64,000 nt of DNA, from sequence record PZ049338.1, one strand, 5' to 3'. Source of the stretch: a phage. Shown here one piece after another: positions 12,024 to 59,249 of the stretch; the stretch's first letter is position 1; each line of letters opens with the position of its first letter. The notes under the pieces are model-generated. The model did not search any database, was not told the DNA's origin, and saw only the letters and a program-made list of their open reading frames with translations. Position numbers and translations under genes: made by a program.

Positions 12024-13256
12024 ATGGGCAAGAAAAGTACACCGAAGCAGACCACTACTTCAAAAACTGAGAATAATCCGTGGGCTCCGGCCCAAGACCA
12101 ACTCAAAGATATACTCTCTGAGGCTCAGAAACAATATGAAGCAACCGGTGGTCTCGATGGTAACTGGATTGATAAGAATTTCCCAGACTTAACACCAGAG
12201 ATGAAAGCATCTCTTGGTAATCTGGCATCTTCTGGTCAGTTAAATCAAGTAGCGGATAATATTAATAAGATTACCTCTAGTGCATCTACAAACGTAAATA
12301 ATGCCTCTAGTGCATTATCTGGAATGACTTCTGGTGGCATTACTGGTCAGCAGATTAATGATTTGGCTAGCTCATTATATGATAATGAACTTGTTGACAG
12401 TCAAGTTACAAGTCTCACTGATGATGCAATGTTAAACTACGACAAACAAGTTAATGCACTTAACCAAGCTGCTGGTGCAACTGGTAACATGGGCTCTTCT
12501 CGTGCTGGTGTTGCTCAAGGTGTTATGGCAGGTGAAACCAACAAAGCAATCGCTAAAGGTACAGCGGACATTACTAATGCCGCTCGTTCCTCAGCGTACA
12601 ACCAAGCACTTGGTACACTGCAAGGTAATCAACAGACTAATCTGTCTGCTTCTGGCGCTCTTGGTAGTCTCGGTATGAACCAAGGTCAACTTCAAGCTAG
12701 TAACTCTGATATCTATCAGAAGGTTCTCCAGAACGAAGCTACTGCTGCTAACGTGTGGCAATCTCAAGCACAAGGTAAAGCTGATAACGATTGGTTCAAC
12801 GCAACTGGTGCTGCTAATGGTGGCTGGGATAACCTGTCTAAATACTTGCAAATGGTTGGTGCCATTGGTGGTATGGGAGGTACTTCCAACTCTACCGTTA
12901 CATCTAAGACCTCAGGAAGCAGTGGTGGTATGTTCAACTCCATCCTTGGTGGTGTTTCTACCGGTGCCGGTTTGATTGGTGCTGGTGCTCAAGCTGGTTG
13001 GTGGTCTGACGCTGCTATGAAGAAGAACGTCAAGAAGACTGGCAAGACTAAGAAAGGTACTAACAAATATGAGTGGGAGTGGAACAAGGCAGGTGAGGAG
13101 AAGGGTATGAAGGGTAAGGCGTCTGGTGTACTTGCACAAGATGTTGCCAAGAAGAACCCTGAAGCTGTTAAGAAAACTCCAAGTGGCAAGCTGATGGTCG
13201 ATTATGATAAGACTGATGTTAAGCCTAAAAACTCTAAAGCTAAGAAGAAGAAATAA
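12024..13256 (+). CDS. Virion structural protein (410 aa), S/N/G-rich with Lys-rich C-terminus
   Basis: Good SD; low-complexity composition; followed by a terminator hairpin. Confidence 0.4.
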   Translation: MGKKSTPKQTTTSKTENNPWAPAQDQLKDILSEAQKQYEATGGLDGNWIDKNFPDLTPEMKASLGNLASSGQLNQVADNINKITSSASTNVNNASSALSGMTSGGITGQQINDLASSLYDNELVDSQVTSLTDDAMLNYDKQVNALNQAAGATGNMGSSRAGVAQGVMAGETNKAIAKGTADITNAARSSAYNQALGTLQGNQQTNLSASGALGSLGMNQGQLQASNSDIYQKVLQNEATAANVWQSQAQGKADNDWFNATGAANGGWDNLSKYLQMVGAIGGMGGTSNSTVTSKTSGSSGGMFNSILGGVSTGAGLIGAGAQAGWWSDAAMKKNVKKTGKTKKGTNKYEWEWNKAGEEKGMKGKASGVLAQDVAKKNPEAVKKTPSGKLMVDYDKTDVKPKNSKAKKKK

Positions 13257-13276
13257 GAGCCTTCGGGCTCTTTTCT
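13255..13276 (+). terminator. Rho-independent terminator with UUCG tetraloop
   Basis: AGAGCC-TTCG-GGCTCT hairpin followed by TTTCTT. Confidence 0.5.
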
Positions 13277-13291
13277 TATAGGAGAATAGAA

Positions 13292-14152
13292 ATGGGTAAT
13301 ATCTTATCAGCAATCACAGATGGTGCTTTGGATTCTATCAAAAGCCCCCTTAAGGTTGTAAAAGACATTGGTAAAGGTGATTTCAGCGGGGCATTTAAAA
13401 ACCTCAAACACATTCCCGGTAACCAAGAACGTGCTAACAAAGAGATTCTTCAATCTGCTGGTGTCCGAGGTTGGGTTGGTGACTATCCCGGTGAAAGTGC
13501 TGCTGCAATAGTTGGTTCTATCTTTGGCGGTGCAGCCCTTATGGGTGGTGGAGCAGCCGCAGCCGGTGGTGCTGGGGCAGCAGGTGCTGGAGGTGCTGCG
13601 GGTGGTTCTGCTGCTCTTGGTGGTGCAGGTGCTGCCGGATATTTAGCACCTACTGCTGCTGGAGGTGTTGGTGCCACAGGTGCTGGCAGTAGCTTAGTAT
13701 CTACAGGTGCTCTCTCAGCTATCAGTTCCCAAGCCCCATCTACTGCTGCACTGTTACAGATGGGTAATGCTGGGGTTGGTGCATCTACAGCAACTGCTGG
13801 TGCTTCGTCCTTTACTCCTGCAATGTTAACAACTCAAGGTGCTGCTGCATCTGGCGGTACTTATGGTGCTGCTTCTGCTCCTGCAATTGCATTGCAAACA
13901 CCTGCTGCCGGTGGTGCTTCTGCTGGAAGCTCTACAATGTCAAACCCTGAAACTTGGAATCAAATCTCTAAACTTGTGAACAGTGTTAAAAAACCAGAGC
14001 AAGAGAACCAAACACTTGCACCTGTTCCAATGGGTTCGGGACATCGAGGTAACTTCAACTTCGACCGTAAGAATTTCCAAAATCAGGCACTAACTCAAAC
14101 GTATGGTGAACTTTATAATAAACCTACGAAAACACCGAATATTAAATTCTAA
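13292..14152 (+). CDS. Gly/Ala-rich low-complexity virion protein (286 aa)
   Basis: ~110-aa G/A tract (GGAAAAGGAGAAGAGG...); strong SD. Confidence 0.4.
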   Translation: MGNILSAITDGALDSIKSPLKVVKDIGKGDFSGAFKNLKHIPGNQERANKEILQSAGVRGWVGDYPGESAAAIVGSIFGGAALMGGGAAAAGGAGAAGAGGAAGGSAALGGAGAAGYLAPTAAGGVGATGAGSSLVSTGALSAISSQAPSTAALLQMGNAGVGASTATAGASSFTPAMLTTQGAAASGGTYGAASAPAIALQTPAAGGASAGSSTMSNPETWNQISKLVNSVKKPEQENQTLAPVPMGSGHRGNFNFDRKNFQNQALTQTYGELYNKPTKTPNIKF

Positions 14153-14163
14153 GGAGAGATTAG

Positions 14164-14718
14164 ATGGCTACTAACGCCTACTTAGAGCGCATGAATCAGC
14201 TCCGTTCAGAAAGACGTCAAGTTAAAACTAGACAGTTAGAAGAAATGGGTGTTCCGATTCGTCGCCCAGAACAACATAGTAATTATAATGGTGCTTCACC
14301 TTCAGGTGTTCCTACTGGAGAAGCTCCTATCCCTCAAGAAGATGAATCATACAAAGACTCCCACTTCTATAATGCGTTTGAAGGTTATAAACAGCGTGAT
14401 GAGAAGTTTGGTAGTGTCATTGATGAACTCACTGAGTTAGCTACAGGTCTTCGTGAGCAGGTTAAACTAGGGTATATGCCTGAGCAAGTTGCTCGTCAAC
14501 GATTGACACAATTCGTAGGTGATACTCAACAGCAATTTGTACGTGCTAAGCCTCAACTGGAAAAAGAAAAGCAGAATAAGCAAATGGAAGCAATGTTAGG
14601 TGTATTAACTGGTGTTACACAGCAACAGCAGATGCAACAGCAGCAAGCCAAAGCTAACGAGCCTATCCCAGCAGAGGGTATTTCAGCAGAAGAAGCACAA
14701 CAAAGGGGAGGTTGGTAA
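14164..14718 (+). CDS. Hypothetical virion protein (184 aa), Q-rich C-terminus
   Basis: SD AAGGAGAGA; in structural operon. Confidence 0.4.
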   Translation: MATNAYLERMNQLRSERRQVKTRQLEEMGVPIRRPEQHSNYNGASPSGVPTGEAPIPQEDESYKDSHFYNAFEGYKQRDEKFGSVIDELTELATGLREQVKLGYMPEQVARQRLTQFVGDTQQQFVRAKPQLEKEKQNKQMEAMLGVLTGVTQQQQMQQQQAKANEPIPAEGISAEEAQQRGGW

Positions 14719-16361
14719 TGGCTGATTCTAACAGCCTGTCATTTGGTGCTCTCGCACTGAATACTGGCATTAATAATTTAAAGAAGGTTGTTAATCCTGT
14801 TATTAACACCTCTCTCGCTGAAAATGATTTCAAAGAGCAGAATGGTCGGTATCCAAACTCTAAGGATGAGTTGAATACTTTTATCAAGCAGGGTGGTCAA
14901 TCTGAACGTGACCGTCGTAATCCTGCTCCAACTCCTGCTCCTGCACAAGCGGCTCCAGAACAAGCTCCGGGTGAACCATTTAACCCATCTAGTCTGTTAG
15001 TTCCAGTGCAGAAACATCTTCCTACTCAACAGACACCTGATAGTGCTCAGGATAAGGCCGCACAGCAACGTGGGGCTCTTAATCAGCAAGCACAAGGCAA
15101 AGCCCAAGCTGTTGCGAAAGCACGCTCACAGGGCTACCAGGACGTTCCTAATGCTGCTCAAGACCCAGCGGGTAACTTAGCTGCTCGTAACGCTAACAAA
15201 GCTGCTGGTGTGGGTGGTACTTCTGGTGAGATTAACTTTAATAAAGAAGGCGAAGTACCTTCTCCTCAACAAGCTCAGAACATGCAGCTTGACCAATTGG
15301 GTAAGAAGACAGCCTTCAATATGGATGATATGCCTGAGTGGTATGAGTCTAATTCGTTTAACTATGGACTCATTTCTTTTGGTCTCAATCTGTTATCTGG
15401 TAACGATTTGGCTACCTCTTTTGGTGCCGCTGGTGAAGCTTTCTCTTCTATGTATGGGCAAGAGCGTCGTCAGATGTGGGCGCAAGATTTGATTAGTCAG
15501 GGATATTCCCCTACAGAGGTTGAAGAGTACATCCGTACTGGTAAGTCTGACGTATTGACCGACCCGATGGAGAAACAGGCTAAGCAGATTCAAATGGCTA
15601 CTGGTTTGGCTAATCTGGAAGCTATTCAGTACGAGAACTCTGATGAAGAGCGTCAGTACAAGAAAGACCAAGATAAGTTTGAACGTGATATCAAGATTCA
15701 GCAACTCAATGATTCCCGTGCTGCTCGTGCTGAAAGTGCTGCCCTCCGTCGTGAACAGATGGCTATCAATCAGGAGGAAAGAGAGTTACGTCGTCAAGAG
15801 CGTGCTGAGAAAGCTGCTGCGAAGGGTCAGGAGTATAAAGAAAGCTTGGCTAAGGCTGAGAACTGGTATACCCGTGCTCGTCAAGGTTATAAGAACTACG
15901 AAGATACAGTTAAGAGTTATGGTGGTGTTAACAACATTTACTCCGATAGTGCTTTAGGTAAGATTACTCAGGCTGCACTGACTGATGCTGTGTTCTCTGG
16001 TACCTCTGTCAAAGAAGCTGTTTCGAAGGGTGTTGACGAGAAGTTCGTTACCACTGTTAACCGTGAACGTGAGTTCTTGGCTCCTCTGCTCCGTAAGGAC
16101 TCTGGTGCTGCAATCTCTCAATCTGAATGGAAAACTACGGGTGAGATTTACTTCCCACGTCCGGGTGATACCCAGCAAACGATTGACCAGAAAGCTCAAT
16201 CTCGTGTTGTAGCAATGTTGGCAACCAACCCTCATGCATCTGGTGAACTCCGTGGTGCAGTTGATGCTTACACTCGTGGTGAGATTTCCTCTCTCCGTGA
16301 GAAAGGTGGTCGAGTTTATGCTCAATTACCAGACGGAAGGTGGTTGGAAATCCAACAATAA
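14718..16361 (+). CDS. Putative internal virion protein (~547 aa) with coiled-coil segment
   Basis: ATG at 14718 overlaps upstream stop (TAATG) with GGGGAGG SD; ORF-track start 14712 is a TTG extension. Confidence 0.45.
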   Translation: MADSNSLSFGALALNTGINNLKKVVNPVINTSLAENDFKEQNGRYPNSKDELNTFIKQGGQSERDRRNPAPTPAPAQAAPEQAPGEPFNPSSLLVPVQKHLPTQQTPDSAQDKAAQQRGALNQQAQGKAQAVAKARSQGYQDVPNAAQDPAGNLAARNANKAAGVGGTSGEINFNKEGEVPSPQQAQNMQLDQLGKKTAFNMDDMPEWYESNSFNYGLISFGLNLLSGNDLATSFGAAGEAFSSMYGQERRQMWAQDLISQGYSPTEVEEYIRTGKSDVLTDPMEKQAKQIQMATGLANLEAIQYENSDEERQYKKDQDKFERDIKIQQLNDSRAARAESAALRREQMAINQEERELRRQERAEKAAAKGQEYKESLAKAENWYTRARQGYKNYEDTVKSYGGVNNIYSDSALGKITQAALTDAVFSGTSVKEAVSKGVDEKFVTTVNREREFLAPLLRKDSGAAISQSEWKTTGEIYFPRPGDTQQTIDQKAQSRVVAMLATNPHASGELRGAVDAYTRGEISSLREKGGRVYAQLPDGRWLEIQQ

Positions 16362-16376
16362 TATTGGAGATGATAA

Positions 16377-19300
16377 ATGAATTTTGTGACTGACCCTAAA
16401 TTGCTTGAGGAGTTAAACGCAGGATTCAATCCACAGGGGGCTTCGGCCCCTTCGGTTGATTCCCAAACTCAAACCGCTCCACAGGAAGCAGAAACTAACT
16501 GGGGTATTTACGCTAAAGAAGATGGTTCCATTATGGACACTATCGGTTCTGGTTTGACCAGGATGGGGCGTGCTACCGCAGCAGCTATGGTTCCTAGTGA
16601 TGATGAGGACATGTCGGATTACGCATTAGCTCGCGCTCGACGTGCTAACGCAGAGTACAAAGCTGATGCTGAAAAGCTTGGTGTTGCAGGTCAGGTAGTT
16701 GCAGGTGCTGCAACATATGCCCCTGTTATTGCCGCTGGTATTGCTAACCCTCTGGCAGGTGCTGCTATGATGGGTGGTGCTACTACTGCTGACTCTCTTG
16801 CTGCACAGATTGATAACAATCAAGATTTAGACCTTAACAGTGCAATTGCTGCCGGTGCTGCATCAGCAGGTGTCGACCTTGCTACAATGGGACTCGCCTC
16901 TCGTGGCATGAATGTTGCTAAGGAATTAACATCCCCTGTTAAGCGTGCAATTGCCGGTACTGGTATACAAGCAACTCAGGGTGCTACTTCTAACGCAGCA
17001 GCTCAAGCTGCTATTAACTTAGCATCTGGTCGTCCTTGGAATGAAGGTCTGATAGAAGCTGCTGCCATTGGTGGTGTTGCAGGTGGTGGTTTACATGCTA
17101 CCCTCTCTGGATTGAACCACTCTGCAGGCACTCCACCTAATAAGGGTGGTCAGAAGGCTACAGAAGACCAAGTTAAGTTCGAAACCAAAGATGGGATTAC
17201 TCCTACGGGTGATTATCGTAATCAAGTGTACGAATACGCAAACCAACGTCACCAGTATGATGAAGACATTAACAACATCGACATTGATGATACTAATGGT
17301 TTGGATGCCGCTGTAAATGCTAAAGTAGGCATGGCACTTAACAACGGTACTGCCTCTGCTATTCAGGGCACTGCTAAGCTGTTAGATAAGTTTAAAGTAC
17401 CTAAGACTATTAACTTCTGGGATATGGATGTTGGTAATGGTATCAGTAGCCAACCTGTTGGTAACATAGCTCGCGATTGGTTCAATTTCAGTGACAAAGA
17501 CCTGTTGAAAGCTGGTGAATCTATTGGCCGTGCCAAGCAGACATTGACTGGACGTACCAAAGCACTGGAACAGGGTGAGTTTGAGGAATCCTTCCTTCGT
17601 CAGATGAAAGACTCTTACGATAAGGCCCAAAACGACATCTTAGGGCGTGCAGAATCCAACTGGCGTACCGTCGATAACATTCGTTCACAAATGACCGGTG
17701 CAGAGCGTCCTATGCGTGATTCTCTGAATATCCTGTCTCGTAACCTTGAAGACTACTCTAAGATGGTACGTGATGCCAACTTAGGTAAAGCCCCTAACAC
17801 CGATACTCTCCGTGCTGTTGTAGAAAGCATTGAAGTTAATGCTAAGAAGACTGGACTTCGTGACAAGCTGAAATCTCTTGTAGATGACGCTGAGCAGTTT
17901 GATGGTATCACAAACTTAGAGTCTGCACTGTTGTTTGCAAAAGGTGCTCAGAAGGTTGCTCCTGGCATCCATCGTGCTAACCCTGACCCACTGAAAGCAT
18001 CAAGCCAGAAGGCTGATATGCTGGATGCTGCTGCTGTTGCAACAGGTCAGTTCTGGTTACCTGTGGCTCGTCGTGGTCTTCGTGAGATTGGCGGTAAACG
18101 TTCTCAAGCTCGTTTGCGTGGTGAGAAGGCTCAAGGTGAAGTTGTTTCTCAATCCTTGGCTCGTGACCCACGTCCTGATTTTGTTAACCAAGCTGCTCAG
18201 CGTGGTGATTTCAAAGGTGCTGCTGATGAAGCTGCTGCTGATTTGGAATCAATGGGTATTTCTACTGGTCAGAAAGATGTATGGGGTCGTGAAGCCGAGG
18301 CTGCACCTGTACAAGAGACTGCACCAATCCAAGAAGCCCCGGTTACTCCGGAACCTAAAGTCGATGTTTGGGGTCGTCCTCGTGAGTTCACAGACCTGAC
18401 TGGTCGTGGAGTACGTGAGGCAGAAGCAGCTAAGGCTGAAGCAGAGGCCGCTAACGCACCTGTGGTAGACCCAGAAGCAGAAGCCCAGATAAGGTTCAAC
18501 CTTGGTGAAAGACTCGCTCAGGATGCTCGTGTGGACGCTCAGAGACGTGCTCCTGCACCAGAACCTGAACCTGCATTCACGGATAAAGACTCTCGTCGTG
18601 TAGATGACTTGCAAACCAAACAGAACACCGATGGTTTAACATCCTCTGAAGCTCGTGAACTTGAGTCACTTATTCAGCGTAAGCCTACGCCTGAAGTTAA
18701 GGAAGCAGAACCTGAAGCCCCTAAGAAAGAAGGTGTTAAAGCTTCTGAACTGGCTCGTAAACCCATCTCTGATAAGATTAAAGAGTTCAAGGAGTTGTCT
18801 CCTGAAGCTAAGAAAGACCCTCAACTGATTAACGAGTTTACTCGTAACAGACGTCTTCTCTCTGATGCTGATAAAGCTGTATCCTCTAAGGCTACTGCTA
18901 TGTCTGTTCCTCAGGAAGATATTTGGAGAATCATTGAACGTCAAGGTGGCTTGGAGTCTGTATTTAAGGATGGTCACTCTGCTGAACGTGGTCTGAATAT
19001 TCTTATGCAGAAAGATAAGATTGACTTGCAACGTAAAGCTGATATCGAAGCTAAGAATGCCGAAGATGCCGCTGACAGTGTTAATACTAAATCAGGGAAA
19101 GGTGAGACAACCTCTACTGATGAAGTTGATACTGGAAAGGTAATCGAAGACATGAAGAAAGACTTCATCTCTAAAGGTGTTTCTGGTGAGACATTTGAAG
19201 CTGCACAAGTCCGCGCTGAACAGACCCTTGGCCCAGATTATACACCAACGCAGTTAGCTAACGTTGTTAAATTACTGGCAAAAGAGAAAGCGGCTAAGGC

Positions 19301-20387
19301 TCGTGAAGAAGCTAAGAAGACTAGTAAAGCAGCTAAAACCTCTACTCCGGCAGCAACCCCTACCGTTGGTAGAACAATGCAAGACTCTTGGAATGATATT
19401 CATGGTTATGCACAGACACTCGGTGTTGATGCTGAACCTGAAATCCGTAAGGCACTTAAATCAGCCATGAACTCTGGTAACAAGGACAGGGCTAAATTTA
19501 AGGCACTTAGCGAGGCCAAGGAGCGTGAGTTGTACAACAAGGTAGACGACTTCATTGCAGAACAGCAGAAGGCCTACGAGCGTGCTTTAGCGGCTCCTAA
19601 GACCGAACAACCTGCTGAGTTGGGTGAATGGCGTAAGAAGGTTGCAGACCTCAAGAAACGTCGTGCTCGTGTTTCTAACTTCAATGACTGGCAGACTAAG
19701 AAAGCTAATGACCGCAAGGTAGTAGCAGAGAAAGCTATCAAAGAAGAAGAAGCTCGTACTAAGCGTTTAGAGGCTGAAGCTAAGAAGGCTGATGATGAAG
19801 CTAAGGCTGCTGAGAAGGCTATCAAAGATGCTGAAGAAGCTAAGGCAGCAGAGCAGAAGAAAATGGAAGAAGCTGTAGAGAAGGCTTTCGAAGAGAAAGA
19901 TATGGATGCTGATGTTATCGTAGAAGCTGGTTCCCAGTTGTTTGAGAAACTTGCTGCTCGTGTTAACAGTACAGATTCACCTGACTACAATAAGTTGAAA
20001 GCCATTATGACTGTTGTTGAGCGTAACCTGCCAGTTACCAAACTGAAAACAGGTGAACGTAATCAGGCTAAAGCTTTACTGCTGTCCCAGAAGGCACTGT
20101 TCGATGGTCTGGCTCGTAAAGCAGAGTTCCCGAACAATCCTGAATACTGGTTGTCTACAACAGAACGTGACTTAATTGGTGAAGCATACACTGGTAAGCA
20201 AGGGACTAAGGAGTACGGTTCCATGTATCAGCGTCTGCGTGCTGGTCTGTTCGAAGACGAATCAACTCGTGAGTATGTTCGATTCCCTATCGAGGCTCTG
20301 AATCGTAAGATTAAGAATCTTCGTAAGCGTGCTGAGAATACTACTGAACTTGGAGAGGGTGCTATTAACGTTCAGGACATCAAGTAA
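16377..20387 (+). CDS. Large internal virion / DNA-ejection protein (1336 aa), tape-measure-like
   Basis: Size and position comparable to T7 gp16-class proteins; long Ala/Lys/Glu coiled-coil C-terminal region; no catalytic motif recognised. Confidence 0.45.
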   Translation: MNFVTDPKLLEELNAGFNPQGASAPSVDSQTQTAPQEAETNWGIYAKEDGSIMDTIGSGLTRMGRATAAAMVPSDDEDMSDYALARARRANAEYKADAEKLGVAGQVVAGAATYAPVIAAGIANPLAGAAMMGGATTADSLAAQIDNNQDLDLNSAIAAGAASAGVDLATMGLASRGMNVAKELTSPVKRAIAGTGIQATQGATSNAAAQAAINLASGRPWNEGLIEAAAIGGVAGGGLHATLSGLNHSAGTPPNKGGQKATEDQVKFETKDGITPTGDYRNQVYEYANQRHQYDEDINNIDIDDTNGLDAAVNAKVGMALNNGTASAIQGTAKLLDKFKVPKTINFWDMDVGNGISSQPVGNIARDWFNFSDKDLLKAGESIGRAKQTLTGRTKALEQGEFEESFLRQMKDSYDKAQNDILGRAESNWRTVDNIRSQMTGAERPMRDSLNILSRNLEDYSKMVRDANLGKAPNTDTLRAVVESIEVNAKKTGLRDKLKSLVDDAEQFDGITNLESALLFAKGAQKVAPGIHRANPDPLKASSQKADMLDAAAVATGQFWLPVARRGLREIGGKRSQARLRGEKAQGEVVSQSLARDPRPDFVNQAAQRGDFKGAADEAAADLESMGISTGQKDVWGREAEAAPVQETAPIQEAPVTPEPKVDVWGRPREFTDLTGRGVREAEAAKAEAEAANAPVVDPEAEAQIRFNLGERLAQDARVDAQRRAPAPEPEPAFTDKDSRRVDDLQTKQNTDGLTSSEARELESLIQRKPTPEVKEAEPEAPKKEGVKASELARKPISDKIKEFKELSPEAKKDPQLINEFTRNRRLLSDADKAVSSKATAMSVPQEDIWRIIERQGGLESVFKDGHSAERGLNILMQKDKIDLQRKADIEAKNAEDAADSVNTKSGKGETTSTDEVDTGKVIEDMKKDFISKGVSGETFEAAQVRAEQTLGPDYTPTQLANVVKLLAKEKAAKAREEAKKTSKAAKTSTPAATPTVGRTMQDSWNDIHGYAQTLGVDAEPEIRKALKSAMNSGNKDRAKFKALSEAKERELYNKVDDFIAEQQKAYERALAAPKTEQPAELGEWRKKVADLKKRRARVSNFNDWQTKKANDRKVVAEKAIKEEEARTKRLEAEAKKADDEAKAAEKAIKDAEEAKAAEQKKMEEAVEKAFEEKDMDADVIVEAGSQLFEKLAARVNSTDSPDYNKLKAIMTVVERNLPVTKLKTGERNQAKALLLSQKALFDGLARKAEFPNNPEYWLSTTERDLIGEAYTGKQGTKEYGSMYQRLRAGLFEDESTREYVRFPIEALNRKIKNLRKRAENTTELGEGAINVQDIK

Positions 20388-20466
20388 TTGTAAGGTGTTG
20401 CAAATTATGGCACTAATATAGTTTGTGACACACTTGCAGATTCACCGTACCTGAATAGGACTTGAT

Positions 20467-20598
20467 AATGAACGAATATAAACTTCCTTCGAACAAAGAT
20501 AAAGATTTCTGGGAACGTAATAACGAATCTCGGAAAGAAAGCAAAATCACCAAAAAGAAGGGAGATAAAAACCCTTGGACTCCATACCGGAGTTGGTA
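20467..20598 (+). CDS. Small basic ORF (43 aa)
   Basis: ATG ORF not in track (under 60 aa), immediately followed by terminator. Confidence 0.2.
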
Positions 20599-20608
20599 AC
20601 CTTTACAG

Positions 20609-20630
20609 GGCTCCTTCGGGAGCCTTTTTT
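20609..20630 (+). terminator. Rho-independent terminator with UUCG tetraloop
   Basis: GGCTCC-TTCG-GGAGCC followed by TTTTTT. Confidence 0.55.
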
Positions 20631-20649
20631 CGTTTATGGGGTATAAGAT

Positions 20650-21075
20650 TTGAAAAAGAGATATTACAAGAAGAAAGAAGGGTCGTTGAAAGGGACTGGA
20701 TACGACTCCTTTTTAGAGAAGCATGTTCATGAGAACATAATCCCGAATGCCAGATTCCATGATAAGGGAGATAAGGTGTCTTATACCGTTTCTCATACTT
20801 ACGAACCTGATTTCGTATTAGAGAAAGATGGTAAGACTTACTTAGTGGAAACTAAGGGTAGGTTCAGGGATTCAAATGAGGCTAGGAAGTACATCTTTAT
20901 TAGAGAATTCTTACCAGAGAATACTGAATTGGTATTTGTATGGGAGAAGTCCAACACCATATTCCCGTTCGCCAAAAAGAGGAAGGATGGGACTAAAGCA
21001 ACTCATGAGGAATGGGCCATTAAGAACGGCTTTCGGAACTGGGTTCAAACATCATTCACAGAGGAAGTGTTATGA
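20650..21075 (+). CDS. T7 endonuclease I-like Holliday-junction resolvase
   Basis: Matches recalled T7 gp3 motifs: HTYEPDFVL...LVETKG...IFIREF; TTG start in track, true start uncertain. Confidence 0.7.
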   Translation: MKKRYYKKKEGSLKGTGYDSFLEKHVHENIIPNARFHDKGDKVSYTVSHTYEPDFVLEKDGKTYLVETKGRFRDSNEARKYIFIREFLPENTELVFVWEKSNTIFPFAKKRKDGTKATHEEWAIKNGFRNWVQTSFTEEVL

Positions 21076-21603: not shown

Positions 21604-21609
21604 GATATA

Positions 21610-21634
21610 GGGGAATATTAATTTCCCCTTTTTT
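21610..21634 (+). terminator. Rho-independent terminator ending the late block
   Basis: GGGGAA-tattaat-TTCCCC followed by TTTTTT. Confidence 0.6.
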
Positions 21635-21676
21635 CTTAAAAGTTTGTAAGATAATTAGAAATGTTAAGTAGAATTA

Positions 21677-21698
21677 CTCTTTATATATGTGGATTAAC
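21677..21698 (-). promoter_or_regulatory. Copy A of conserved 22-bp promoter-like motif, pointing leftward into the 21610-21634 hairpin
   Basis: Reverse complement reads GTTAATCCACATATATAAAGAG. Confidence 0.3.
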
Positions 21699-21831
21699 TC
21701 CACCCTATATAATAATAAAGACTGAGGTTAATTATCAGTGAAATAATAACTAGAACCAGTGGAATCATCCAATTGTCAAGAAAATTAAGTATTGACAGTG
21801 CTATCTTGTTCATACTTTGTAATCCACTCCT

Positions 21832-24208: not shown

Positions 24209-24209
24209 G

Positions 24210-26489: not shown

Positions 26490-26511
26490 AAAAAGGCACC
26501 CGAAGGTGCCC
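26490..26511 (-). terminator. Rho-independent terminator (UUCG tetraloop) upstream of ligase
   Basis: On - strand GGGCACC-TTCG-GGTGCC followed by TTTTT. Confidence 0.5.
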
Positions 26512-26518
26512 TCTTAAA

Positions 26519-27997: not shown

Positions 27998-28567
27998 TTA
28001 ACTCTGGAAGTTTACTGATTCTCTGTCAATGTTAGCGACTAATTGACTTCGAATACGATGGAGACTGACGTAAATGTTATTTGAAGACATGCCATACTTA
28101 TTGGCAACATCTTTAGTCGTGAGGTTCTTCAGGTAAACATCGGTGAACAATTCACGTTCTGATTCCTTAAGAGTCTCAAAAGCTCTCTGAACAAACGAGG
28201 AAGCTTCATCGGCTAGTAACTCACGAACAGGGTCAGTTAACCCATTATCATGGCATTCAAATTCGAGGACATTATCGTACATCTCCGTATCAACTCTGTC
28301 GAACTCTCGGCGTACATAACCATAACGAACATTGTTCGCAATAGTACCTATAACACCGCCTAACTTATCCCACTGGATTCTGTCCCAATACTGCCAAATC
28401 CTTAGCAGAGTTTCTTGAGCCAAATCTTCAGCCAGATGGTAATCTTTTTCCATGTAGTAGAATTGTTTCTGGAGAGGTTTCCAGAACTCTTCGTACAACT
28501 CTTCAAAAGTATATGTTTCTCGTTTTGGAGTAGGGGCACTAATTCTCTTAGCCATCATACATTCCAT
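27998..28567 (-). CDS. Phage-encoded sigma-70 family (ECF-like) sigma factor
   Basis: Region-2-like DLAQETLLRIWQYW and region-4 HTH LTTKDVANKYGMSSNNIYVSLHRIRSQL. Confidence 0.7.
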   Translation of the reverse strand: MECMMAKRISAPTPKRETYTFEELYEEFWKPLQKQFYYMEKDYHLAEDLAQETLLRIWQYWDRIQWDKLGGVIGTIANNVRYGYVRREFDRVDTEMYDNVLEFECHDNGLTDPVRELLADEASSFVQRAFETLKESERELFTDVYLKNLTTKDVANKYGMSSNNIYVSLHRIRSQLVANIDRESVNFQS

Positions 28568-28575
28568 GTACTGAT

Positions 28576-28599
28576 GAAAGAAAACCCCTCCGAAGAGGG
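28576..28599 (-). terminator. UUCG-tetraloop hairpin plus U-tract immediately upstream of sigma gene (terminator/attenuator)
   Basis: On - strand CCCCTC-TTCG-GAGGGG followed by TTTTCTTTC, ends 9 nt before sigma ATG. Confidence 0.5.
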
Positions 28600-28796
28600 G
28601 CTAAGTTTCAAGCCGCACTTAAGGTAGCGAATCACCTTTACAAACAGCCTCTATCTGTTGCACACCGTTAGCATTAAGGTTCCGGGTTCTATATTATCGA
28701 GGATAAAGTATATGCTGATGGACATATAGGCCATAGGTTATCTCCCAATTAGCCATCACCTTGGGGTAACATGCCCTTGCCGCTGTTTGAATTTAA

Positions 28797-29570: not shown

Positions 29571-29665
29571 TATTTAATATCCTTATTAATTAATCTCAAT
29601 GTTGAGAGAACTGTTTATATCTCTCGCTCAGTTGTATATAGATTAGTGTAAGATAACTGAAAATC

Positions 29666-30097
29666 TTACATACTTTCTTGCATTATTTGAGAGCGACTAA
29701 CACCATCAAAGTAACAAAAATCGCCCACAATATTGCTATTAATATGGTATACTTCATTGAGGTTCTCACCTGTACGCTTGTGATAGTGATGGCAGATAGC
29801 TTTGTGAGCACAAATCAACCGACTCATGAACGCATACACATGGCTCCTGCCGTATGTACGACCATCCACTGTAGATGATTTCGTATTCACAAACCTGTCA
29901 ACAGCGTCATACTCTATCACTGGTAACATTCTTAGTGCAACAAATAGTGCATTGGTTGATGAAGGGCGGGAATGTCCCGAGTTCGCCGCCCCGTATAACA
30001 CATCCTGCAACCAACCACTAAGTTCATGGAGTTCATCAAAGTTAGAAAACAGGGACTGAATACAATGATTATCTAAATGGACTGTAGGACGTGACAT
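29666..30097 (-). CDS. Hypothetical protein (143 aa), His/Cys-rich
   Basis: ORF in operon context. Confidence 0.35.
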   Translation of the reverse strand: MSRPTVHLDNHCIQSLFSNFDELHELSGWLQDVLYGAANSGHSRPSSTNALFVALRMLPVIEYDAVDRFVNTKSSTVDGRTYGRSHVYAFMSRLICAHKAICHHYHKRTGENLNEVYHINSNIVGDFCYFDGVSRSQIMQESM

Positions 30098-35444: not shown

Positions 35445-35468
35445 AAAAAAGGCCACCCGTAGGCAGCC
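35445..35468 (-). terminator. Rho-independent terminator
   Basis: On - strand GGCTGCC-TACG-GGTGGCC hairpin followed by TTTTTT. Confidence 0.45.
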
Positions 35469-35565
35469 TTGTGTTAACCTTCACCCCAGCCCGTATTAGA
35501 ATCCATCGAATTCATCATACGTCCCAGTTCTCTTCACCAGCAGTGTAACCAATTGCATTCATTCG

Positions 35566-38223: not shown

Positions 38224-38466
38224 TCAGTAATTGTAAGGGTCGTAGTCCAAAGAATCAAACCCGTAATCTGAACTATCAAGATAGCGACCCGGAAAACCCA
38301 TTCGCTGATAAGTTGGTTCGCTAGGGATGGTGTTACCACGAGTGATTTTCTTAACTTGGTCAGAGGAGAACAAAGCTAATCCTTCAGAGGTTCGGGCCGA
38401 AGCCCGTTCCCCTTTCTTGACAACCTTACCCTTCTTTAACCAATCTTCGAAGGAGCGGTATTGCAT
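38224..38466 (-). CDS. Hypothetical protein (80 aa)
   Basis: ORF. Confidence 0.3.
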   Translation of the reverse strand: MQYRSFEDWLKKGKVVKKGERASARTSEGLALFSSDQVKKITRGNTIPSEPTYQRMGFPGRYLDSSDYGFDSLDYDPYNY

Positions 38467-38468
38467 GG

Positions 38469-38684
38469 TTATTTACCCCAATGTTCAACAAACTGTTGAA
38501 ACACTTTACGGTCGAATGTGAAATTACGAGCAATATTACATTCAACAAAAGTAGAGCCCATATAGTCTATAGACAATTCATCAGTGTGACCGTGAACTTG
38601 GATAAGGCGTTTAATCTTATCCTTCTCCTTCCGAGGTAACATACGGAATGCTTCCTGTATGTCTGTAATATGCTTAATTTTCAT
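38469..38684 (-). CDS. Hypothetical protein (71 aa)
   Basis: ORF. Confidence 0.3.
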   Translation of the reverse strand: MKIKHITDIQEAFRMLPRKEKDKIKRLIQVHGHTDELSIDYMGSTFVECNIARNFTFDRKVFQQFVEHWGK

Positions 38685-43831: not shown

Positions 43832-43887
43832 TTCTCACCCCTTGTTATGTTCGACAAAGGCCACTCCGAAGAATGACCTTTAGCAAA

Positions 43888-44432: not shown

Positions 44433-44454
44433 TCTCTTTATATATGTGGATTAA
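44433..44454 (-). promoter_or_regulatory. Copy B of conserved 22-bp promoter-like motif
   Basis: Reverse complement GTTAATCCACATATATAAAGAG followed by AGATTCTTAATG (start codon). Confidence 0.35.
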
Positions 44455-44457
44455 CTA

Positions 44458-46907: not shown

Positions 46908-46927
46908 AGAGGCTCCGAAGAACCTCT
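46908..46927 (-). terminator. Intergenic UUCG-tetraloop hairpin (weak terminator or processing site)
   Basis: On - strand AGAGGTTC-TTCG-GAGCCTCT; downstream tract only moderately U-rich. Confidence 0.3.
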
Positions 46928-47402: not shown

Positions 47403-47417
47403 ATTCTCATTTACCTA

Positions 47418-49409: not shown

Positions 49410-49465
49410 GGATAATAATCCTCTAAGTTCATTTAAATGGGGCCGAAGCCCCTGTTTGTTAATAC

Positions 49466-52514: not shown

Positions 52515-52534
52515 TTCGTTTTCCTTAAAGAGGG

Positions 52535-54628: not shown

Positions 54629-54690
54629 TTGTTTGTTACCTTAGAGAGTTAAAGCTTAGAGCCCTCAATTAAGAGGGCGACCTTGAATTA

Positions 54691-55507: not shown

Positions 55508-55568
55508 TGGGGATTGCTCTCCTAGTGAGGTTAGTTAATGGCTCTCGTAAGAACCCTTAGTAACTTCG

Positions 55569-56848: not shown

Positions 56849-57118
56849 ATGAACCTCCTAAGTATTTAATAAAGGGCTCCGTAGAACCCTTGATAATTAC
56901 TCAGCATCAACAGTGAGTGAAATGCCGAATGCGATTAGGGCAAGAACTACAGCCGCTATTGCATACCAATCCATAATCACTCCTTATTCCATTTAACATT
57001 AAATGAGATAAGGCACGCCGCTGCCAGTGCAGTTTCAACAACAGCGATCACATGATTACCAACAGTCACATCGTATATCGCAAATCCCAACCAGAATGCT
57101 GTAAGGTACAGATATAGT

Positions 57119-57871: not shown

Positions 57872-58134
57872 CTATTTGCCTCACATTTAATTACTTCGTT
57901 TATTTCTTCAGCCACACTCTTTGCCTCTTTATACGAGGTTAGTAAAGAGTTCCAGTAATCGTCACGGTATTCGTGAACAGTTAATGAACTAAGGCGCTCT
58001 TTGTAATACTTAGCGCGCTTTATTGCATCACGTCCAGTTTCTATCATGTGACGTGTGTTTTTAAGTCTTTTATTTCTGACGAGATTCTTCGTCATCCATA
58101 AATTTACGCTTCTTGTGTTCATAATGAACCTCAA
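57868..58134 (-). CDS. Hypothetical basic protein (88 aa)
   Basis: ORF. Confidence 0.3.
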   Translation of the reverse strand: MRFIMNTRSVNLWMTKNLVRNKRLKNTRHMIETGRDAIKRAKYYKERLSSLTVHEYRDDYWNSLLTSYKEAKSVAEEINEVIKCEANR

Positions 58135-58466
58135 TTGCGATGATTGTCACAACTGCAACAGCAGCGAGAGCGTATTCAATCCACCAGATATCAGCTAGGC
58201 TTGACATAGATGAAACCCTCATAGGCGGTGTAGATGAACTTACGACCGAGCAGTGTGCCTACAAGCACGTACTTTTGTTTAGTGGAGTTGGACACTACGG
58301 CCCCCCTGATATGGTGAGGAGTTAGGATACCAGAACATGTTCTTACTGTTTGCAATCATACCGAATCCGGTAAGACCCATCAGTTGGTCACACAATGCTT
58401 GAGCGATTGATTGAGGCTTGGTGGTAGATTCACTAACCTTGAAACTGACTTTAGGCTCTTTGTACA

Positions 58467-58757
58467 TTACAAACCCCCATGTCTACATTTAACAAGAATG
58501 CCGTCAATGATGATGTAGTGTGAATGGTAAACCATTTCACGAGGTATATCACCATGTTCGCTGTTCCACTGGATAAAGTTCATCCGTTCCCAATCAATAT
58601 ATTGGGACTTCGCTTGAGCAATTACTTCTTCCAGAGTGACTTCACCATAAGGACTCATTGACTTCATCATTTCACAAACTGACATATCAACTCCTGTCAA
58701 AGTCGAGAACAACACTACCGTTCTTCTCAATCTCAGCCATAACTTTATTGTACTCAT
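58467..58757 (-). CDS. Hypothetical protein (96 aa)
   Basis: ORF. Confidence 0.3.
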   Translation of the reverse strand: MSTIKLWLRLRRTVVLFSTLTGVDMSVCEMMKSMSPYGEVTLEEVIAQAKSQYIDWERMNFIQWNSEHGDIPREMVYHSHYIIIDGILVKCRHGGL

Positions 58758-58998
58758 TCACTGTTCGAACGAGTGCAGCCTTCGGGTTGGCTTGCATGGC
58801 AATACCCATGACAACGCCTTGAACTTGAGGGTCAGTCACCCAAGTATTAACGATTGCTGATGCACAACCAACAATCTTAGGAATCACGCGTGGTTTACGC
58901 TTTTCAGTGCGAGCACTATCACACTCGATAAGGTAAGTCATTATCAGTGCTTCAAGGGCTTCCTCATACTGAAAGAGTTTTTCATCTTGAACAATCAT
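58687..58998 (-). CDS. Hypothetical protein (103 aa)
   Basis: ORF; start region preceded by hairpin. Confidence 0.3.
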   Translation of the reverse strand: MIVQDEKLFQYEEALEALIMTYLIECDSARTEKRKPRVIPKIVGCASAIVNTWVTDPQVQGVVMGIAMQANPKAALVRTVNEYNKVMAEIEKNGSVVLDFDRS

Positions 58999-59249
58999 TA
59001 GAAGTCCTTAAAATAGGAGGCGGGGACGAGCCGCCTTTACCCTATGAGTTAAGTTTGCATGTAAGACCTAACAATCGGATGCCTTCAGCGGAATAAGCGT
59101 TATGCGTATCCTGCACTAAACTCCCGCCCCCTTAGTGGGCTGGGTGTATAAAGGGTAACGCCCTTATGGGCTAGTTACATGAATGTTAGTTTGATAGGAG
59201 ATCTGACGTCCTATCTCAAAGGGCTCTCAGAAGAACCCTTTACGATAGT

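What the first reader, a model, noticed from the sequence alone, without database searches (positions are those of the whole stretch)
13255..59035. Recurrent UUCG/UACG-tetraloop hairpins at gene boundaries on both strands
Near-perfect GC-rich stems closed by a UUCG (or UACG) tetraloop occur at 13255-13276 (+), 20609-20630 (+), 26490-26511 (-), 28576-28599 (-), 43850-43876 (-), 46908-46927 (-) and 56865-56888 (-), with related stems at 55538-55558 and 59222-59243. Some are followed by U-tracts and look like terminators. Others lack U-tracts and may be processing or stability elements.
Basis: seen in the sequence. Interest (0 to 1): 0.35.

Follow-up and report, generated by a model that had tools for sequence, protein, structure and literature searches.

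The report
Phage terminator hairpins with UUCG loops
The recurring GC-rich hairpins capped by UUCG or UACG loops are real and far from random, but they are the ordinary transcription-stop and RNA-stabilising hairpins of a Salmonella phage, a kind known since 1988 and already noticed in its sister phage 7-11.

Summary
The window is a ~76-kb prolate podophage (Grimontviridae), 98.8% identical to plasmid-dependent phage PKM.Lu.22.1 and related to Salmonella phage 7-11. A census adds five UNCG-loop hairpins (16435, 34909, 35449, 38393, 49439) and four with other loops. Stable hairpins with UUCG/UACG loops number 11, against 0.12 expected in shuffled sequence. All lie on the transcribed strand. Most sit 3-13 nt after a stop codon and 18-42 nt before the next start. 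They recur at the same gene junctions in up to ten related phage lineages with different stems and interchangeable loops (UUCG, GAAA, A/U-rich), so structure is selected, not sequence. Six, in the late gene clusters, carry 6-8 U in the next 9 nt and are canonical intrinsic terminators or attenuators. One sits just upstream of the phage sigma-factor gene in all ten lineages examined. Those in the sigma70-driven early operon have weaker U-tracts (3-5 of 9) and are probably leaky terminators or 3'-exonuclease barriers. RNase III sites, promoter spacers and nut-like sites are not supported. No transcript-end data exist for this phage. This is a new member of a known kind; interest is low.

The parts
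13255..13272 (+). AAGAGCC[UUCG]GGCUCUU followed by UUCUUAU. Intrinsic terminator/attenuator. The 5' arm overlaps the stop codon of the DNA-ejection-protein gene (12024..13256); the next start is 19 nt downstream.
   Evidence: dG -10.0; 7 U of 9. Orthologues: 7-11 AAGGGGC[UUCG]GCCCCUU UUU and GAP52 AAGGGGGC[UUCG]GCCCUCUU UUG. Annotated as a rho-independent terminator in the 7-11 record.
16435..16452 (+). AGGGGGC[UUCG]GCCCCUU inside the coding sequence of the 1336-aa virion protein (codons ~20-25, peptide GASAP). In-CDS hairpin of unknown role.
   Evidence: dG -11.9. 7-11 gp024 has GGGGCAUC[UUCG]GGUGCUCC at the same place; GAP52 instead has an intergenic hairpin just upstream of the gene.
20607..20626 (+). 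AGGGCUCC[UUCG]GGAGCCUU followed by UUUUCGUUU. Intrinsic terminator after the small gene 20468..20599 and before the endonuclease gene.
   Evidence: dG -13.1; 7 U of 9. Orthologues: 7-11 GGCUCC[CUCGU]GGAGCC UUUCUUUUU and GAP52 GGGCUGCC[UUCG]GGCGGCCUUUUG.
21609..21629 (.). AGGGGAA[UAUUAAU]UUCCCCU, a terminator hairpin at the convergent junction of the + and - gene clusters. It has 8 U of 9 on the + strand and 5 of 9 on the - strand. The loop is not UNCG.
   Evidence: The orthologous 7-11 site is annotated as terminators on both strands.
26490..26515 (-). AAGAGGGCACC[UUCG]GGUGCCUUUUU followed by CGUCUCU. Intrinsic terminator/attenuator 18 nt upstream of the DNA ligase gene.
   Evidence: dG -15.6. 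A hairpin plus U-tract is present at this junction in 10 lineages, with different stems and loops UUCG, AUUU, UUUU or GAAA.
28583..28602 (-). AGCCCCUC[UUCG]GAGGGGUU followed by UUCUUUC. Intrinsic terminator/attenuator 27 nt upstream of the phage ECF-type sigma-factor gene (27998..28555) and downstream of a late-promoter-like site at 29644-29669.
   Evidence: dG -13.4; 7 U of 9. A hairpin plus U-tract sits upstream of the sigma gene in all 10 lineages examined. Annotated as a terminator in Privateer. A primer-extension stop maps to the orthologous intergenic region of 7-11, which holds this hairpin (PMC8948821).
34909..34928 (-). GCUGCCUC[UUCG]GAGGCGGC followed by AAGGAUAAC. Stable hairpin with no U-tract, 10 nt after a stop codon and 73 nt upstream of the DNA polymerase gene.
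   Evidence: dG -14.4; 1 U of 9. 7-11 and GAP52 have a MazG-like gene between the orthologues of its flanking genes, so no positional counterpart could be assessed.
35449..35470 (-). AAGGCUGCC[UACG]GGUGGCCUU followed by UUUUGUCUCU. Intrinsic terminator/attenuator.
   Evidence: dG -14.0; 7 U of 9. Orthologues: 7-11 AGGGCUGCC[GAAA]GGCGGCCUU and GAP52 AGGAAGCUGCC[UUCG]GGCGGCUUUUU.
38393..38406 (-). CGGGC[UUCG]GCCCG inside gene 38224..38472 (peptide ERASAR). In-CDS hairpin under structural selection.
   Evidence: PKM.Lu.22.1 has CGAGC[UUCG]GCUCG, which differs by two synonymous, mutually compensatory changes. 7-11 gp077 has GAGCGAGC[UUCG]GCUCGUUC at the same codons.
43855..43882 (-). UAAAGGUCAUUC[UUCG]GAGUGGCCUUUG, with three G.U pairs. 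Early-operon hairpin with a weak U-tract.
   Evidence: dG -14.5 sense versus -5.0 antisense; 4 U of 9. Identical in 7-11. pSal-SNUABM-01 has AAGGUCACU[UUCG]AGUGGCCUU; GAP52 has AAGGCUUC[UUCG]GGAGCCUU.
46908..46927 (-). AGAGGUUC[UUCG]GAGCCUCU followed by UAUAAUAUU. Early-operon hairpin upstream of the ATP-grasp gene.
   Evidence: dG -11.2; 5 U of 9. Identical in 7-11, whose record annotates a sigma70 promoter over it. pSal-SNUABM-01 keeps the hairpin through two compensatory pair swaps (AAGGGUUC..GAGCCCUU) but loses the -35-like hexamer.
49439..49452 (-). GGGGC[UUCG]GCCCC followed by AUUUAAAUG. Early-operon hairpin upstream of the glutamine amidotransferase gene.
   Evidence: dG -9.6; 4 U of 9. 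Orthologues: 7-11 AGGGGC[AUAAA]GCCCCU, GAP52 GGGGC[GAAA]GUCCC, Privateer ACCCCUA[GAAA]UAGGGGU.
54661..54678 (-). GCCCUC[UUAAUU]GAGGGC. Early-operon hairpin; the loop is not UNCG here.
   Evidence: dG -11.2. The 7-11 orthologue is GCCUCUCC[UUCG]GGAGGGGC.
55540..55555 (-). GGUUCU[UACG]AGAGCC. A weakened copy; PKM.Lu.22.1 has the longer stem AAGGGUUCU..AGAGCCCUU. It lies upstream of an endolysin-like gene.
   Evidence: dG -5.5. Orthologues: 7-11 GGCUCUG[GAAA]CAGAGUC CUUUUUU (annotated as a terminator) and pSal-SNUABM-01 GGCUCUC[UUGCGAU]GAGAGUC.
56872..56891 (-). AAGGGUUC[UACG]GAGCCCUU followed by UAUUAAAU. Early-operon hairpin.
   Evidence: dG -11.8 sense versus -5.7 antisense; 5 U of 9. Orthologues: 7-11 AAGGGUUC[UUCG]GAGCCCUU and pSal-SNUABM-01 AAGGGUUCC[UUCG]GGAGCCCUU, which has one extra C-G pair.
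59217..59242 (-). UAAAGGGUUCU[UCUG]AGAGCCCUUUG. Early-operon hairpin at the 5' end of a 251-nt structured intergenic region.
   Evidence: dG -13.2; 4 U of 9.
61419..61436 (-). GCUCGCC[AUUU]GGCGGGC followed by UUUACAUAA. The hairpin abuts the -35 hexamer of a sigma70-like promoter (TTTACA-17-TATTGT).
   Evidence: dG -12.0.
7705..7725 (+). UGGAGGGG[GAUGA]CCUCUCCA followed by ACCUUUUA. Late-cluster hairpin 40 nt after the stop of gene 5301..7664.
   Evidence: dG -13.1; 4 U of 9.

Best explanation
The hairpins are RNA elements on the transcribed strand of a Moazamivirus-like phage. By homology with phage 7-11, its genes are read by the host RNA polymerase with sigma70 (early) or a phage ECF-type sigma (late). 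Each is a GC-rich stem capped in most cases by the extra-stable C(UNCG)G tetraloop, placed just after a stop codon.

Class A comprises 13255, 20607, 21609, 26490, 28583 and 35449, all in the late gene clusters, with 6-8 U in the next 9 nt. These are canonical intrinsic terminators acting as partial stops (attenuators) inside operons. The one at 28583 sits between a late promoter-driven gene and the sigma-factor gene, so it should damp the positive feedback of sigma on its own synthesis.

Class B comprises 43855, 46908, 49439, 54661, 55540, 56872, 59217 and 61419 in the sigma70 early operon, plus 34909 and 7705 (late-cluster hairpins with poor U-tracts) and the two in-CDS hairpins. These have degenerate U-tracts. 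They most likely let most polymerases through and serve as weak terminators and/or barriers to 3'-to-5' exonucleases that stabilise the upstream mRNA segment.

Shown here: existence, non-randomness, strand specificity, position, and conservation of structure across relatives. Inferred: termination, read-through and stabilisation.
For: - Enrichment: 11 stable UUCG/UACG hairpins against 0.12 expected.
- Sense-strand bias: all are on the transcribed strand. In 18 of 19 hairpin-strand comparisons the sense strand is the more stable, owing to 0-3 G.U pairs per stem.
- Placement: most begin within 13 nt of a stop codon (one overlaps it); those followed by a gene end 18-42 nt before its start, except 34909 (73 nt) and 7705 (169 nt); Shine-Dalgarno sequences, checked at 13255 and 56872, lie outside the stem.
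- Positional conservation with different stems and swapped loops (UUCG, GAAA, A/U-rich) in 7-11, pSal-SNUABM-01, GAP52, ECO319P1, Privateer/CsaP_009, BUCT695, LAh_6 and APT65.
- The sigma-upstream and ligase-upstream hairpins carry a U-tract in every lineage.
- Window versus PKM.Lu.22.1: 5 differences in 339 hairpin nt against 59 in 2019 flanking nt. None breaks a pair, and one is a synonymous compensatory G-C to A-U swap inside a CDS.
- U counts are lower in the early operon than in the late clusters (mean 4.1 versus 5.8 of 9; one-sided Mann-Whitney p = 0.014). Late-promoter-like motifs GTAAnn-N16-nCTA place the early/late boundary near 43160.
- GenBank annotation in relatives: the 7-11 record marks the orthologues of 13255, 21609 and 55540 as terminators, and the Privateer record marks the orthologue of 28583.
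- Literature: a primer-extension stop maps to the intergenic region of 7-11 that holds the sigma-upstream hairpin, and CUUCGG hairpins are discussed there (PMC8948821). [quoted passage not shown]
Against: - No 3'-end mapping, term-seq or half-life data exist for this phage or its close relatives.
- In 7-11 the primer annealing in the sigma gene is extended up to the hairpin, so transcripts do cross it. The authors interpret the hairpin as a processing or stabilising element and never call it a terminator.
- Eight or more hairpins have only 1-5 U of 9, so calling them terminators would be weak.
- The early-versus-late difference rests on 8 versus 9 sites.
- The structure-anchored pair counts are biased, because each hairpin was found by folding.
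- The energy model gives C(UUCG)G a bonus, although the shuffles received the same bonus.
Confidence: 0.75

Rival explanations
1. None of the hairpins terminates transcription. All are RNA-stability or processing elements: 3'-exonuclease barriers, or 5' stabilisers of the downstream message after endonucleolytic cleavage, as proposed for the sigma transcript of 7-11 by analogy with the T4 gene 32 leader.
For: Lavysh et al. 2022 saw a late-kinetics primer-extension end in the intergenic region holding the 7-11 hairpin and proposed processing or stabilisation. Class B hairpins lack good U-tracts. Early transcripts in 7-11 are long and polycistronic.
Against: A stabiliser has no need for a U-tract. 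Even so, the sigma-upstream and ligase-upstream hairpins are followed by U-rich tracts in every lineage examined, while the stems and loops change. The hairpins follow stop codons closely, as terminators do.
Confidence: 0.15
2. The subfamily sharing the stem GGUUC...GAGCC (46908, 55540, 56872, 59217) is a set of specific recognition sites for a phage or host RNA-binding factor. An example would be nut-like sites that load an antitermination factor onto the early transcription complex.
For: Four copies of GGTTC-N3-7-GAGCC occur on the sense strand of the early region, against 0.35 expected. Two of them are identical or nearly identical in 7-11 despite diverged flanking genes. Lavysh et al. state that an antitermination strategy is likely and undefined.
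Against: In pSal-SNUABM-01 the same sites keep the hairpin through compensatory swaps or an inserted pair, and in GAP52 and Privateer the stems are unrelated or absent. The loops interchange between UUCG and UACG at 56872, and the 7-11/pSal-SNUABM-01 orthologues of 55540 carry GAAA and a 7-nt loop. No boxA/boxB-like anatomy is present. The 16-mer occurs in IMG/VR as 67 single-copy hits on diverse contigs, only one of them a relative (7-11), which I judge roughly chance level.
Confidence: 0.05
3. The palindromes act at the DNA level, as promoter spacers, operators or cruciforms. An example is the sigma70 promoter TTCAGA-N17-TATAAT annotated over the 46908-like hairpin in the 7-11 record.
For: The promoter scan finds TTCAGA-17-TATAAT at 46930-46902, and the 7-11 record annotates it. 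Hairpin 61419 abuts a sigma70-like -35 hexamer.
Against: Only 2 of the 5 predicted sigma70 promoters of 7-11 were validated, both upstream of gene 151. pSal-SNUABM-01 loses the -35-like hexamer but keeps the hairpin. Conserved G.U wobbles make the stems imperfect as DNA palindromes, and orientation follows transcription in every case.
Confidence: 0.03
4. The hairpins are RNase III processing sites, as in T7-like phages.
For: They are intergenic stem-loops in a polycistronic phage transcript.
Against: The stems are 5-12 bp. From established knowledge, RNase III substrates need roughly two helical turns (about 20 bp) of double-stranded RNA. No internal-loop anatomy like the T7 R sites is present.
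Confidence: 0.02

Closest known systems
C(UUCG)G hairpins of bacteriophage T4 intercistronic regions (Tuerk et al. 1988, PNAS 85:1364, as cited in PMC8948821 and PMC3972237)
   Same: Short GC stems closed by C-G and capped by UUCG. They are over-represented in phage intergenic regions, on the mRNA strand, unusually stable, and stop reverse transcriptase.
   Different: A different phage family (a prolate podophage using the host polymerase plus a phage ECF-type sigma). Here the loop class is shown to interchange with GAAA and A/U-rich loops at orthologous sites.
Rho-independent (intrinsic) terminators of enterobacteria (d'Aubenton Carafa et al. 1990, as cited in PMC3972237)
   Same: A GC-rich stem, a tetraloop of the UUCG/GNRA classes, a U-tract directly after the stem, and a position after a stop codon. 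This applies to 13255, 20607, 21609, 26490, 28583 and 35449.
   Different: The early-operon hairpins, 34909 and 7705 have only 1-5 U in the 9 nt after the stem. All except the convergent-junction hairpin lie inside operons, so they must be leaky.
The hairpin between genes 48 and 47 (sigma) of Salmonella phage 7-11 (Lavysh et al. 2022, PMC8948821)
   Same: Direct orthologue of window 28583-28602: same junction, same CUUCGG loop, and a U-tract after it.
   Different: It was described there only as a possible processing, RT-stall or stabilising element in 7-11 and GAP52. Here it is found with a U-tract in ten lineages, and I read it as an attenuator.
RNase III sites of T7-like phages
   Same: Intergenic RNA structures that punctuate polycistronic phage transcripts.
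   Different: Those are about 20-bp or longer interrupted helices. These are 5-12 bp hairpins.

Membership tests
Intrinsic (rho-independent) terminator | GC-rich stem-loop with a short loop on the transcribed strand | tested here: met
   Stems of 5-12 bp, loops of 4-7 nt and dG of -8.7 to -15.6 kcal/mol, apart from the weakened copy at 55540 (-5.5). All are on the sense strand.
Intrinsic (rho-independent) terminator | U-rich tract immediately 3' of the stem (class A sites 13255, 20607, 21609+, 26490, 28583, 35449) | tested here: met
   6-8 U in the 9 nt after the last G-C pair. For the two junctions examined widely (26490 and 28583), the U-tract is also present in the orthologues of up to ten lineages.
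Intrinsic (rho-independent) terminator | U-rich tract immediately 3' of the stem (class B sites 7705, 34909, 43855, 46908, 49439, 54661, 55540, 56872, 59217, 61419 and the in-CDS sites 16435, 38393) | tested here: not met
   Only 1-5 U of 9. The background U fraction is about 0.28, or roughly 2.5 of 9.
Intrinsic (rho-independent) terminator | Transcripts actually end in the U-tract; termination by purified RNA polymerase | not testable with these tools
   No transcript data are available for this phage. In 7-11 only a primer-extension stop mapping to the intergenic region that holds the sigma-upstream hairpin is reported.
C(UNCG)G extra-stable tetraloop hairpin (Tuerk 1988 class) | UNCG loop closed by a C-G pair | tested here: met
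   Ten UUCG and two UACG loops are closed by C-G. Exceptions are 55540 (U-A closing pair) and 59217 (loop UCUG).
C(UNCG)G extra-stable tetraloop hairpin (Tuerk 1988 class) | Over-represented and mainly intergenic in a phage genome | tested here: met
   11 observed against 0.12 expected. Twelve of fourteen sites lie in the roughly 5.5% of the window that is intergenic.
RNase III processing site | About two helical turns (~20 bp) of double-stranded RNA | tested here: not met
   The longest uninterrupted stem is 12 bp.
Lambda-type nut site (boxA + boxB) | Conserved 5-bp stem with a GNRA-like pentaloop, plus a boxA sequence kept in relatives | tested here: not met
   The loops are UNCG tetraloops. 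Stems and loops vary between orthologous sites.
Sigma70 promoter (as annotated over the 46908-like hairpin in the 7-11 record) | -35 and -10 hexamers conserved in relatives, and a mapped transcription start | tested here: not met
   The -35-like hexamer is lost in pSal-SNUABM-01 while the hairpin is kept. Only the two promoters upstream of gene 151 were validated in 7-11.

The most novel reading that the evidence does not exclude
The hairpins form a graded series. Those along the ~20-kb sigma70 early operon were selected to be leaky, while a strong terminator is conserved directly upstream of the phage sigma-factor gene in every lineage of the group, downstream of a sigma-dependent promoter. 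On this reading, read-through of that one terminator sets the timing of the early-to-late switch, whether it happens passively or through the still-undefined antitermination mechanism that Lavysh et al. postulate. The GGUUC...GAGCC hairpins could be where such a factor engages the transcript.
Probability: 0.2. Interest if true: 0.5.

Novelty: new member of a known kind. Interest (0 to 1): 0.2.

Why it matters
It matters mainly for annotation. These 18 hairpins give an operon and attenuation map for a poorly annotated group of plasmid-dependent prolate podophages, almost all of whose genes are labelled hypothetical. The one point of wider interest is the terminator-like hairpin kept immediately upstream of the sigma-factor gene in ten lineages. 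It makes a published open question directly testable with term-seq and terminator mutants: how early transcription reaches the sigma gene in 7-11-like phages, and whether antitermination is involved.

Tried and rejected
- Rfam gathering-threshold scan of the whole window found nothing, and a tRNA scan found none.
- Scan of IMG/VR for the 16-mer AGGTTCTTCGGAGCCT. It returned 67 single-copy hits on diverse contigs, only one of them a relative (7-11), which I judge roughly chance level. There is no sign of a mobile or widespread element.
- The search for related loci with the DNA ligase found no relatives in IMG/VR. With the primase/helicase it found only six usable relatives, so I used GenBank phage records instead.
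- MAFFT alignments of the orthologous terminators (A1-A3) put the stems out of register, so the count of structure pairs could not be used. I counted pairs on loop-anchored arms in Python instead. That count is biased, because each hairpin was found by folding.
- The long AT-rich 'hairpin' at 20395-20431 was dropped. It overlaps a late-promoter-like GTAAGG-N16-ACTA site.
- The idea that GGAATGTATG upstream of the sigma gene is a phiEco32-type promoter (TAATGTATA) was dropped. Comparison with relatives shows it is the ribosome-binding region.
- The sigma70-promoter reading of 46908 was rejected.

Full report
**Identity of the window.** The window has 43.5% G+C. Positions 12000-21000 are 98.8% identical to phage PKM.Lu.22.1 (OQ829281.1, 76,397 bp, Grimontviridae) and 98.7% to PKM.Hi.22.6. 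The next relatives, at 71-73% DNA identity over parts, are Salmonella phages 7-11, SE131, pSal-SNUABM-01 and SeKF_80, then Cronobacter phages GAP52 and A24 and Escherichia phage ECO319P1. Lu221 and Hi226 are plasmid-dependent podophages with prolate heads (PMC10782986). Transferring the PKM.Lu annotation shows genes on the + strand up to 21603 and on the - strand from 21785 to the end. Intergenic gaps of at least 20 nt total about 3.4 kb, roughly 5.5% of the sequence. Rfam and tRNA scans found nothing.

**Check of the observation.** All nine listed sites hold the described stem-loops, with small corrections to their limits.
- An unbiased census of uninterrupted stems (G.U allowed) with 4-nt loops found 37 hairpins with dG <= -9 kcal/mol on the two strands, against 12.1 +/- 3.5 in 100 dinucleotide-preserving shuffles.
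- Eleven of them have UUCG (9) or UACG (2) loops, against 0.12 +/- 0.32 expected.
- The census adds 16435(+), 34909(-), 35449(-), 38393(-) and 49439(-).
- It also adds four intergenic hairpins with other loops: 7705(+), 21609, 54661(-) and 61419(-).
- Every one is on the locally transcribed strand.
- In 18 of 19 hairpin-strand comparisons the sense strand folds better, because 0-3 G.U pairs per stem become C.A mismatches on the complement. Examples are 43855 (-14.5 versus -5.0) and 56872 (-11.8 versus -5.7).
- The bare hexamer CUUCGG is not strand-biased (20 sense, 17 antisense). About half of the sense copies sit in stable stems and none of the antisense ones does.
- Most hairpins start within 13 nt of a stop codon (one overlaps it). 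Those followed by a gene end 18-42 nt before its start, except 34909 (73 nt) and 7705 (169 nt). Where I checked (13255 and 56872), the ribosome-binding site lies outside the stem.

**Comparison with relatives.** I fetched about 42 kb around the primase/helicase gene of 7-11, GAP52 and Privateer, and smaller pieces of ECO319P1, BUCT695, CsaP_009, LAh_6, APT65 and pSal-SNUABM-01. Orthologous junctions were matched by tblastn of the flanking proteins. Hairpins recur at the same junctions, but the stems differ and the loops are interchangeable.
- Upstream of the DNA ligase gene (window 26490) there is a hairpin plus U-tract in ten lineages. The loops are UUCG (window, PKM.Lu, 7-11, pSal-SNUABM-01, GAP52, ECO319P1), AUUU or UUUU (Privateer, CsaP_009) and GAAA (LAh_6, BUCT695).
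- Upstream of the sigma-factor gene (window 28583) the same holds in all ten lineages examined. The loops are UUCG, UUUAU, UAGUG and CAUGA, and the tails include UUUUCUUUC, UUCUUUUCC, UUUAUUUUG, UUUUAUCUC and UUUUUUGUC.
- 35449 (UACG) corresponds to a GAAA loop in 7-11 and UUCG in GAP52.
- 49439 (UUCG) corresponds to AUAAA in 7-11 and GAAA in GAP52 and Privateer.
- 54661 (UUAAUU) corresponds to UUCG in 7-11.
- The late-cluster sites 13255, 20607 and 21609 also have counterparts in 7-11 and GAP52.
- The 7-11 record annotates the orthologues of 13255, 21609 and 55540 as terminators, and the Privateer record the orthologue of 28583.

Loop-anchored pair counts show both-sided changes at nearly every stem position. 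That count is biased, because each hairpin was found by folding. The independent evidence is the repeated presence of a hairpin of different sequence at the same junction. By my rough estimate from the shuffle counts, a random 60-90 nt spacer would hold one only a few percent of the time.

**Close-range evidence for selection on structure.** Between the window and PKM.Lu.22.1, the hairpins differ at 5 of 339 positions and the 60-nt flanks at 59 of 2019. None of the five breaks a pair. One converts G.U to A-U, one lies in a loop and one is at the stem base. Two are a compensatory G-C to A-U swap in the in-CDS hairpin 38393 (CGGGC..GCCCG to CGAGC..GCUCG). That swap consists of two synonymous codon changes that leave the peptide ERASAR intact. 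7-11 has a longer UUCG hairpin at the same codons. The other in-CDS hairpin, 16435, also has a counterpart with a different stem in 7-11 gp024.

**Two classes.** Counting U in the 9 nt after the outermost G-C pair separates the hairpins into two groups.
- 13255, 20607, 21609(+), 26490, 28583 and 35449 have 6-8 U.
- 43855, 46908, 49439, 54661, 55540, 56872, 59217 and 61419 have 3-5 U.
- 34909 has 1 U, and 7705, in the late + cluster, has 4.
- Background is about 2.5 of 9.

The late-promoter consensus established for 7-11 is GTAAtg-(16)-aCTA (PMC8948821). It matches ten places in the window, all in the sense orientation. On the - strand they include 43135, 40756, 36186 and 29644. The first of these places the boundary between the sigma70 early operon and the leftward late cluster near 43160. 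All eight hairpins upstream of that boundary have weak U-tracts. The late-cluster ones are mostly strong (mean 4.1 versus 5.8; one-sided Mann-Whitney p = 0.014; small samples). The same tendency appears in 7-11 and GAP52.

**What is already published.** Lavysh, Mekler, Klimuk and Severinov (Viruses 2022, PMC8948821) reported the following.
- 7-11 has two sigma70 early promoters at the right end, giving long leftward polycistronic transcripts.
- It has eight late promoters read by the phage sigma gp47, including one upstream of gene 48.
- Only two of five predicted sigma70 promoters are real.
- They attribute that end to processing or reverse-transcriptase stalling, cite the T4 CUUCGG hairpins of Tuerk et al. 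1988, and suggest transcript stabilisation.
- They add that an antitermination strategy is 'highly likely' and undefined.
- They never use the word terminator.

PMC3972237 summarises that UUCG and GAAA tetraloops act as reverse-transcription stops in T4 mRNA and as parts of rho-independent terminators. The paper describing Lu221 and Hi226 does not mention hairpins or terminators.

**Mechanism.** Class A hairpins have every sequence feature of intrinsic terminators for the enterobacterial polymerase. They keep the U-tract across lineages while everything else changes, which a pure stability element would not need. Because they lie inside operons, 18-27 nt before the next gene, they must be partial stops. 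The 7-11 primer-extension result confirms that transcripts cross the sigma-upstream hairpin.

The arrangement at 29644-27998 is late promoter, then the gene 48 homologue, then the hairpin with its U-tract, then the sigma gene. This implies an attenuator inside the positive-feedback loop of sigma synthesis. That step is inference.

Class B hairpins, with degenerate U-tracts in an operon that must be read through for about 20 kb, are best explained as leaky terminators and/or 3'-exonuclease barriers. This is also inference, by analogy with established roles of such hairpins.

**Rivals.**
- DNA-level promoter. Hairpin 46908 lies in the spacer of TTCAGA-17-TATAAT, which the 7-11 record annotates as a promoter. 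This fails because that promoter was not among the two validated in 7-11. pSal-SNUABM-01 also keeps the hairpin through two compensatory swaps while losing the -35-like hexamer.
- Sequence-specific, nut-like recognition. The four early-region hairpins sharing GGUUC...GAGCC raised this idea. It is weakened by the same compensatory changes, by an inserted C-G pair at the orthologue of 56872, by unrelated stems in GAP52 and Privateer, and by roughly chance-level occurrence of the 16-mer in IMG/VR.
- RNase III. This is excluded by stem length.
- Chance. This is excluded.

**Verdict.** The elements belong to a kind known since 1988 and partly annotated or discussed in sister phages, so novelty is low (a new member of a known kind). 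The only point with some research value is the universally conserved terminator-like hairpin in front of the sigma-factor gene, together with the graded U-tracts. Together these make the unresolved read-through or antitermination question in this phage group testable.

Noticed in passing
792-813 (+), 21677-21698 (-), 44434-44455 (-), 63683-63704 (-): A 22-nt repeat GTTAATCCACATATAWWAAGAG occurs four times with at most 2 mismatches, always in the local sense orientation; 0 are expected by chance. Two copies end 8-9 nt before a start codon, so they include the ribosome-binding site. The other two have no nearby start codon. A similar sequence sits at the convergent junction of 7-11. Function unknown: it could be a promoter, an operator or a translation-initiation cassette.
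   Followed up: partly
2428, 2694, 8961, 14067, 20390 (+); 43135, 40756, 38855, 36186, 29644 (-): Ten matches to the 7-11 late-promoter consensus GTAAnn-N16-nCTA, all on the transcribed strand and mostly intergenic. They probably mark the promoters read by the phage sigma factor and place the early/late boundary of the leftward genes near 43160.
   Followed up: partly
58999-59249 (-): A 251-nt gene-free region folds unusually well (MFE -80.4 kcal/mol, z = -3.3 against 200 shuffles) and matches no Rfam family. It starts with hairpin 59217 and ends with a GC-rich hairpin followed by UAUUUUAAGG. It could be a noncoding RNA or a long structured leader.
   Followed up: partly
1-9100: The first ~9 kb of the window has no DNA-level match to the collinear part of PKM.Lu.22.1, although the rest is mostly 94-99% identical gene by gene. 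One gene (9102..10067) looks chimeric between two PKM.Lu genes. Since the relatives are plasmid-pilus-dependent phages, this may be a swapped tail or receptor-binding module.
   Followed up: no
56897-56974 (-) and 28556-28796 (-): Unannotated small ORFs lie between annotated genes and the hairpins. One encodes a 25-aa hydrophobic peptide (MDWYAIAAVVLALIAFGISLTVDAE) ending 6 nt before hairpin 56872. Another possible 26-aa ORF with a GGGAGA ribosome-binding site lies in the 241-nt spacer upstream of hairpin 28583.
   Followed up: no
61390-61418 and 61726-61753 (-): Two strong sigma70-like promoters (TTTACA-17-TATTGT and TTGACA-16-TATTGT) lie in the long spacers near the right end. The first is directly after hairpin 61419-61436. 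They may correspond to the early promoters of 7-11, which lie at the right end of its genome upstream of gene 151.
   Followed up: no
L018 16687-16921 (7-11) and L096 484-536 (pSal-SNUABM-01): In the relatives, the spacer after the 43855-like hairpin contains sequences that look like tRNA 3' halves (GGTTCGATTCC...CCA). The window has no tRNA at that place or anywhere else.
   Followed up: no
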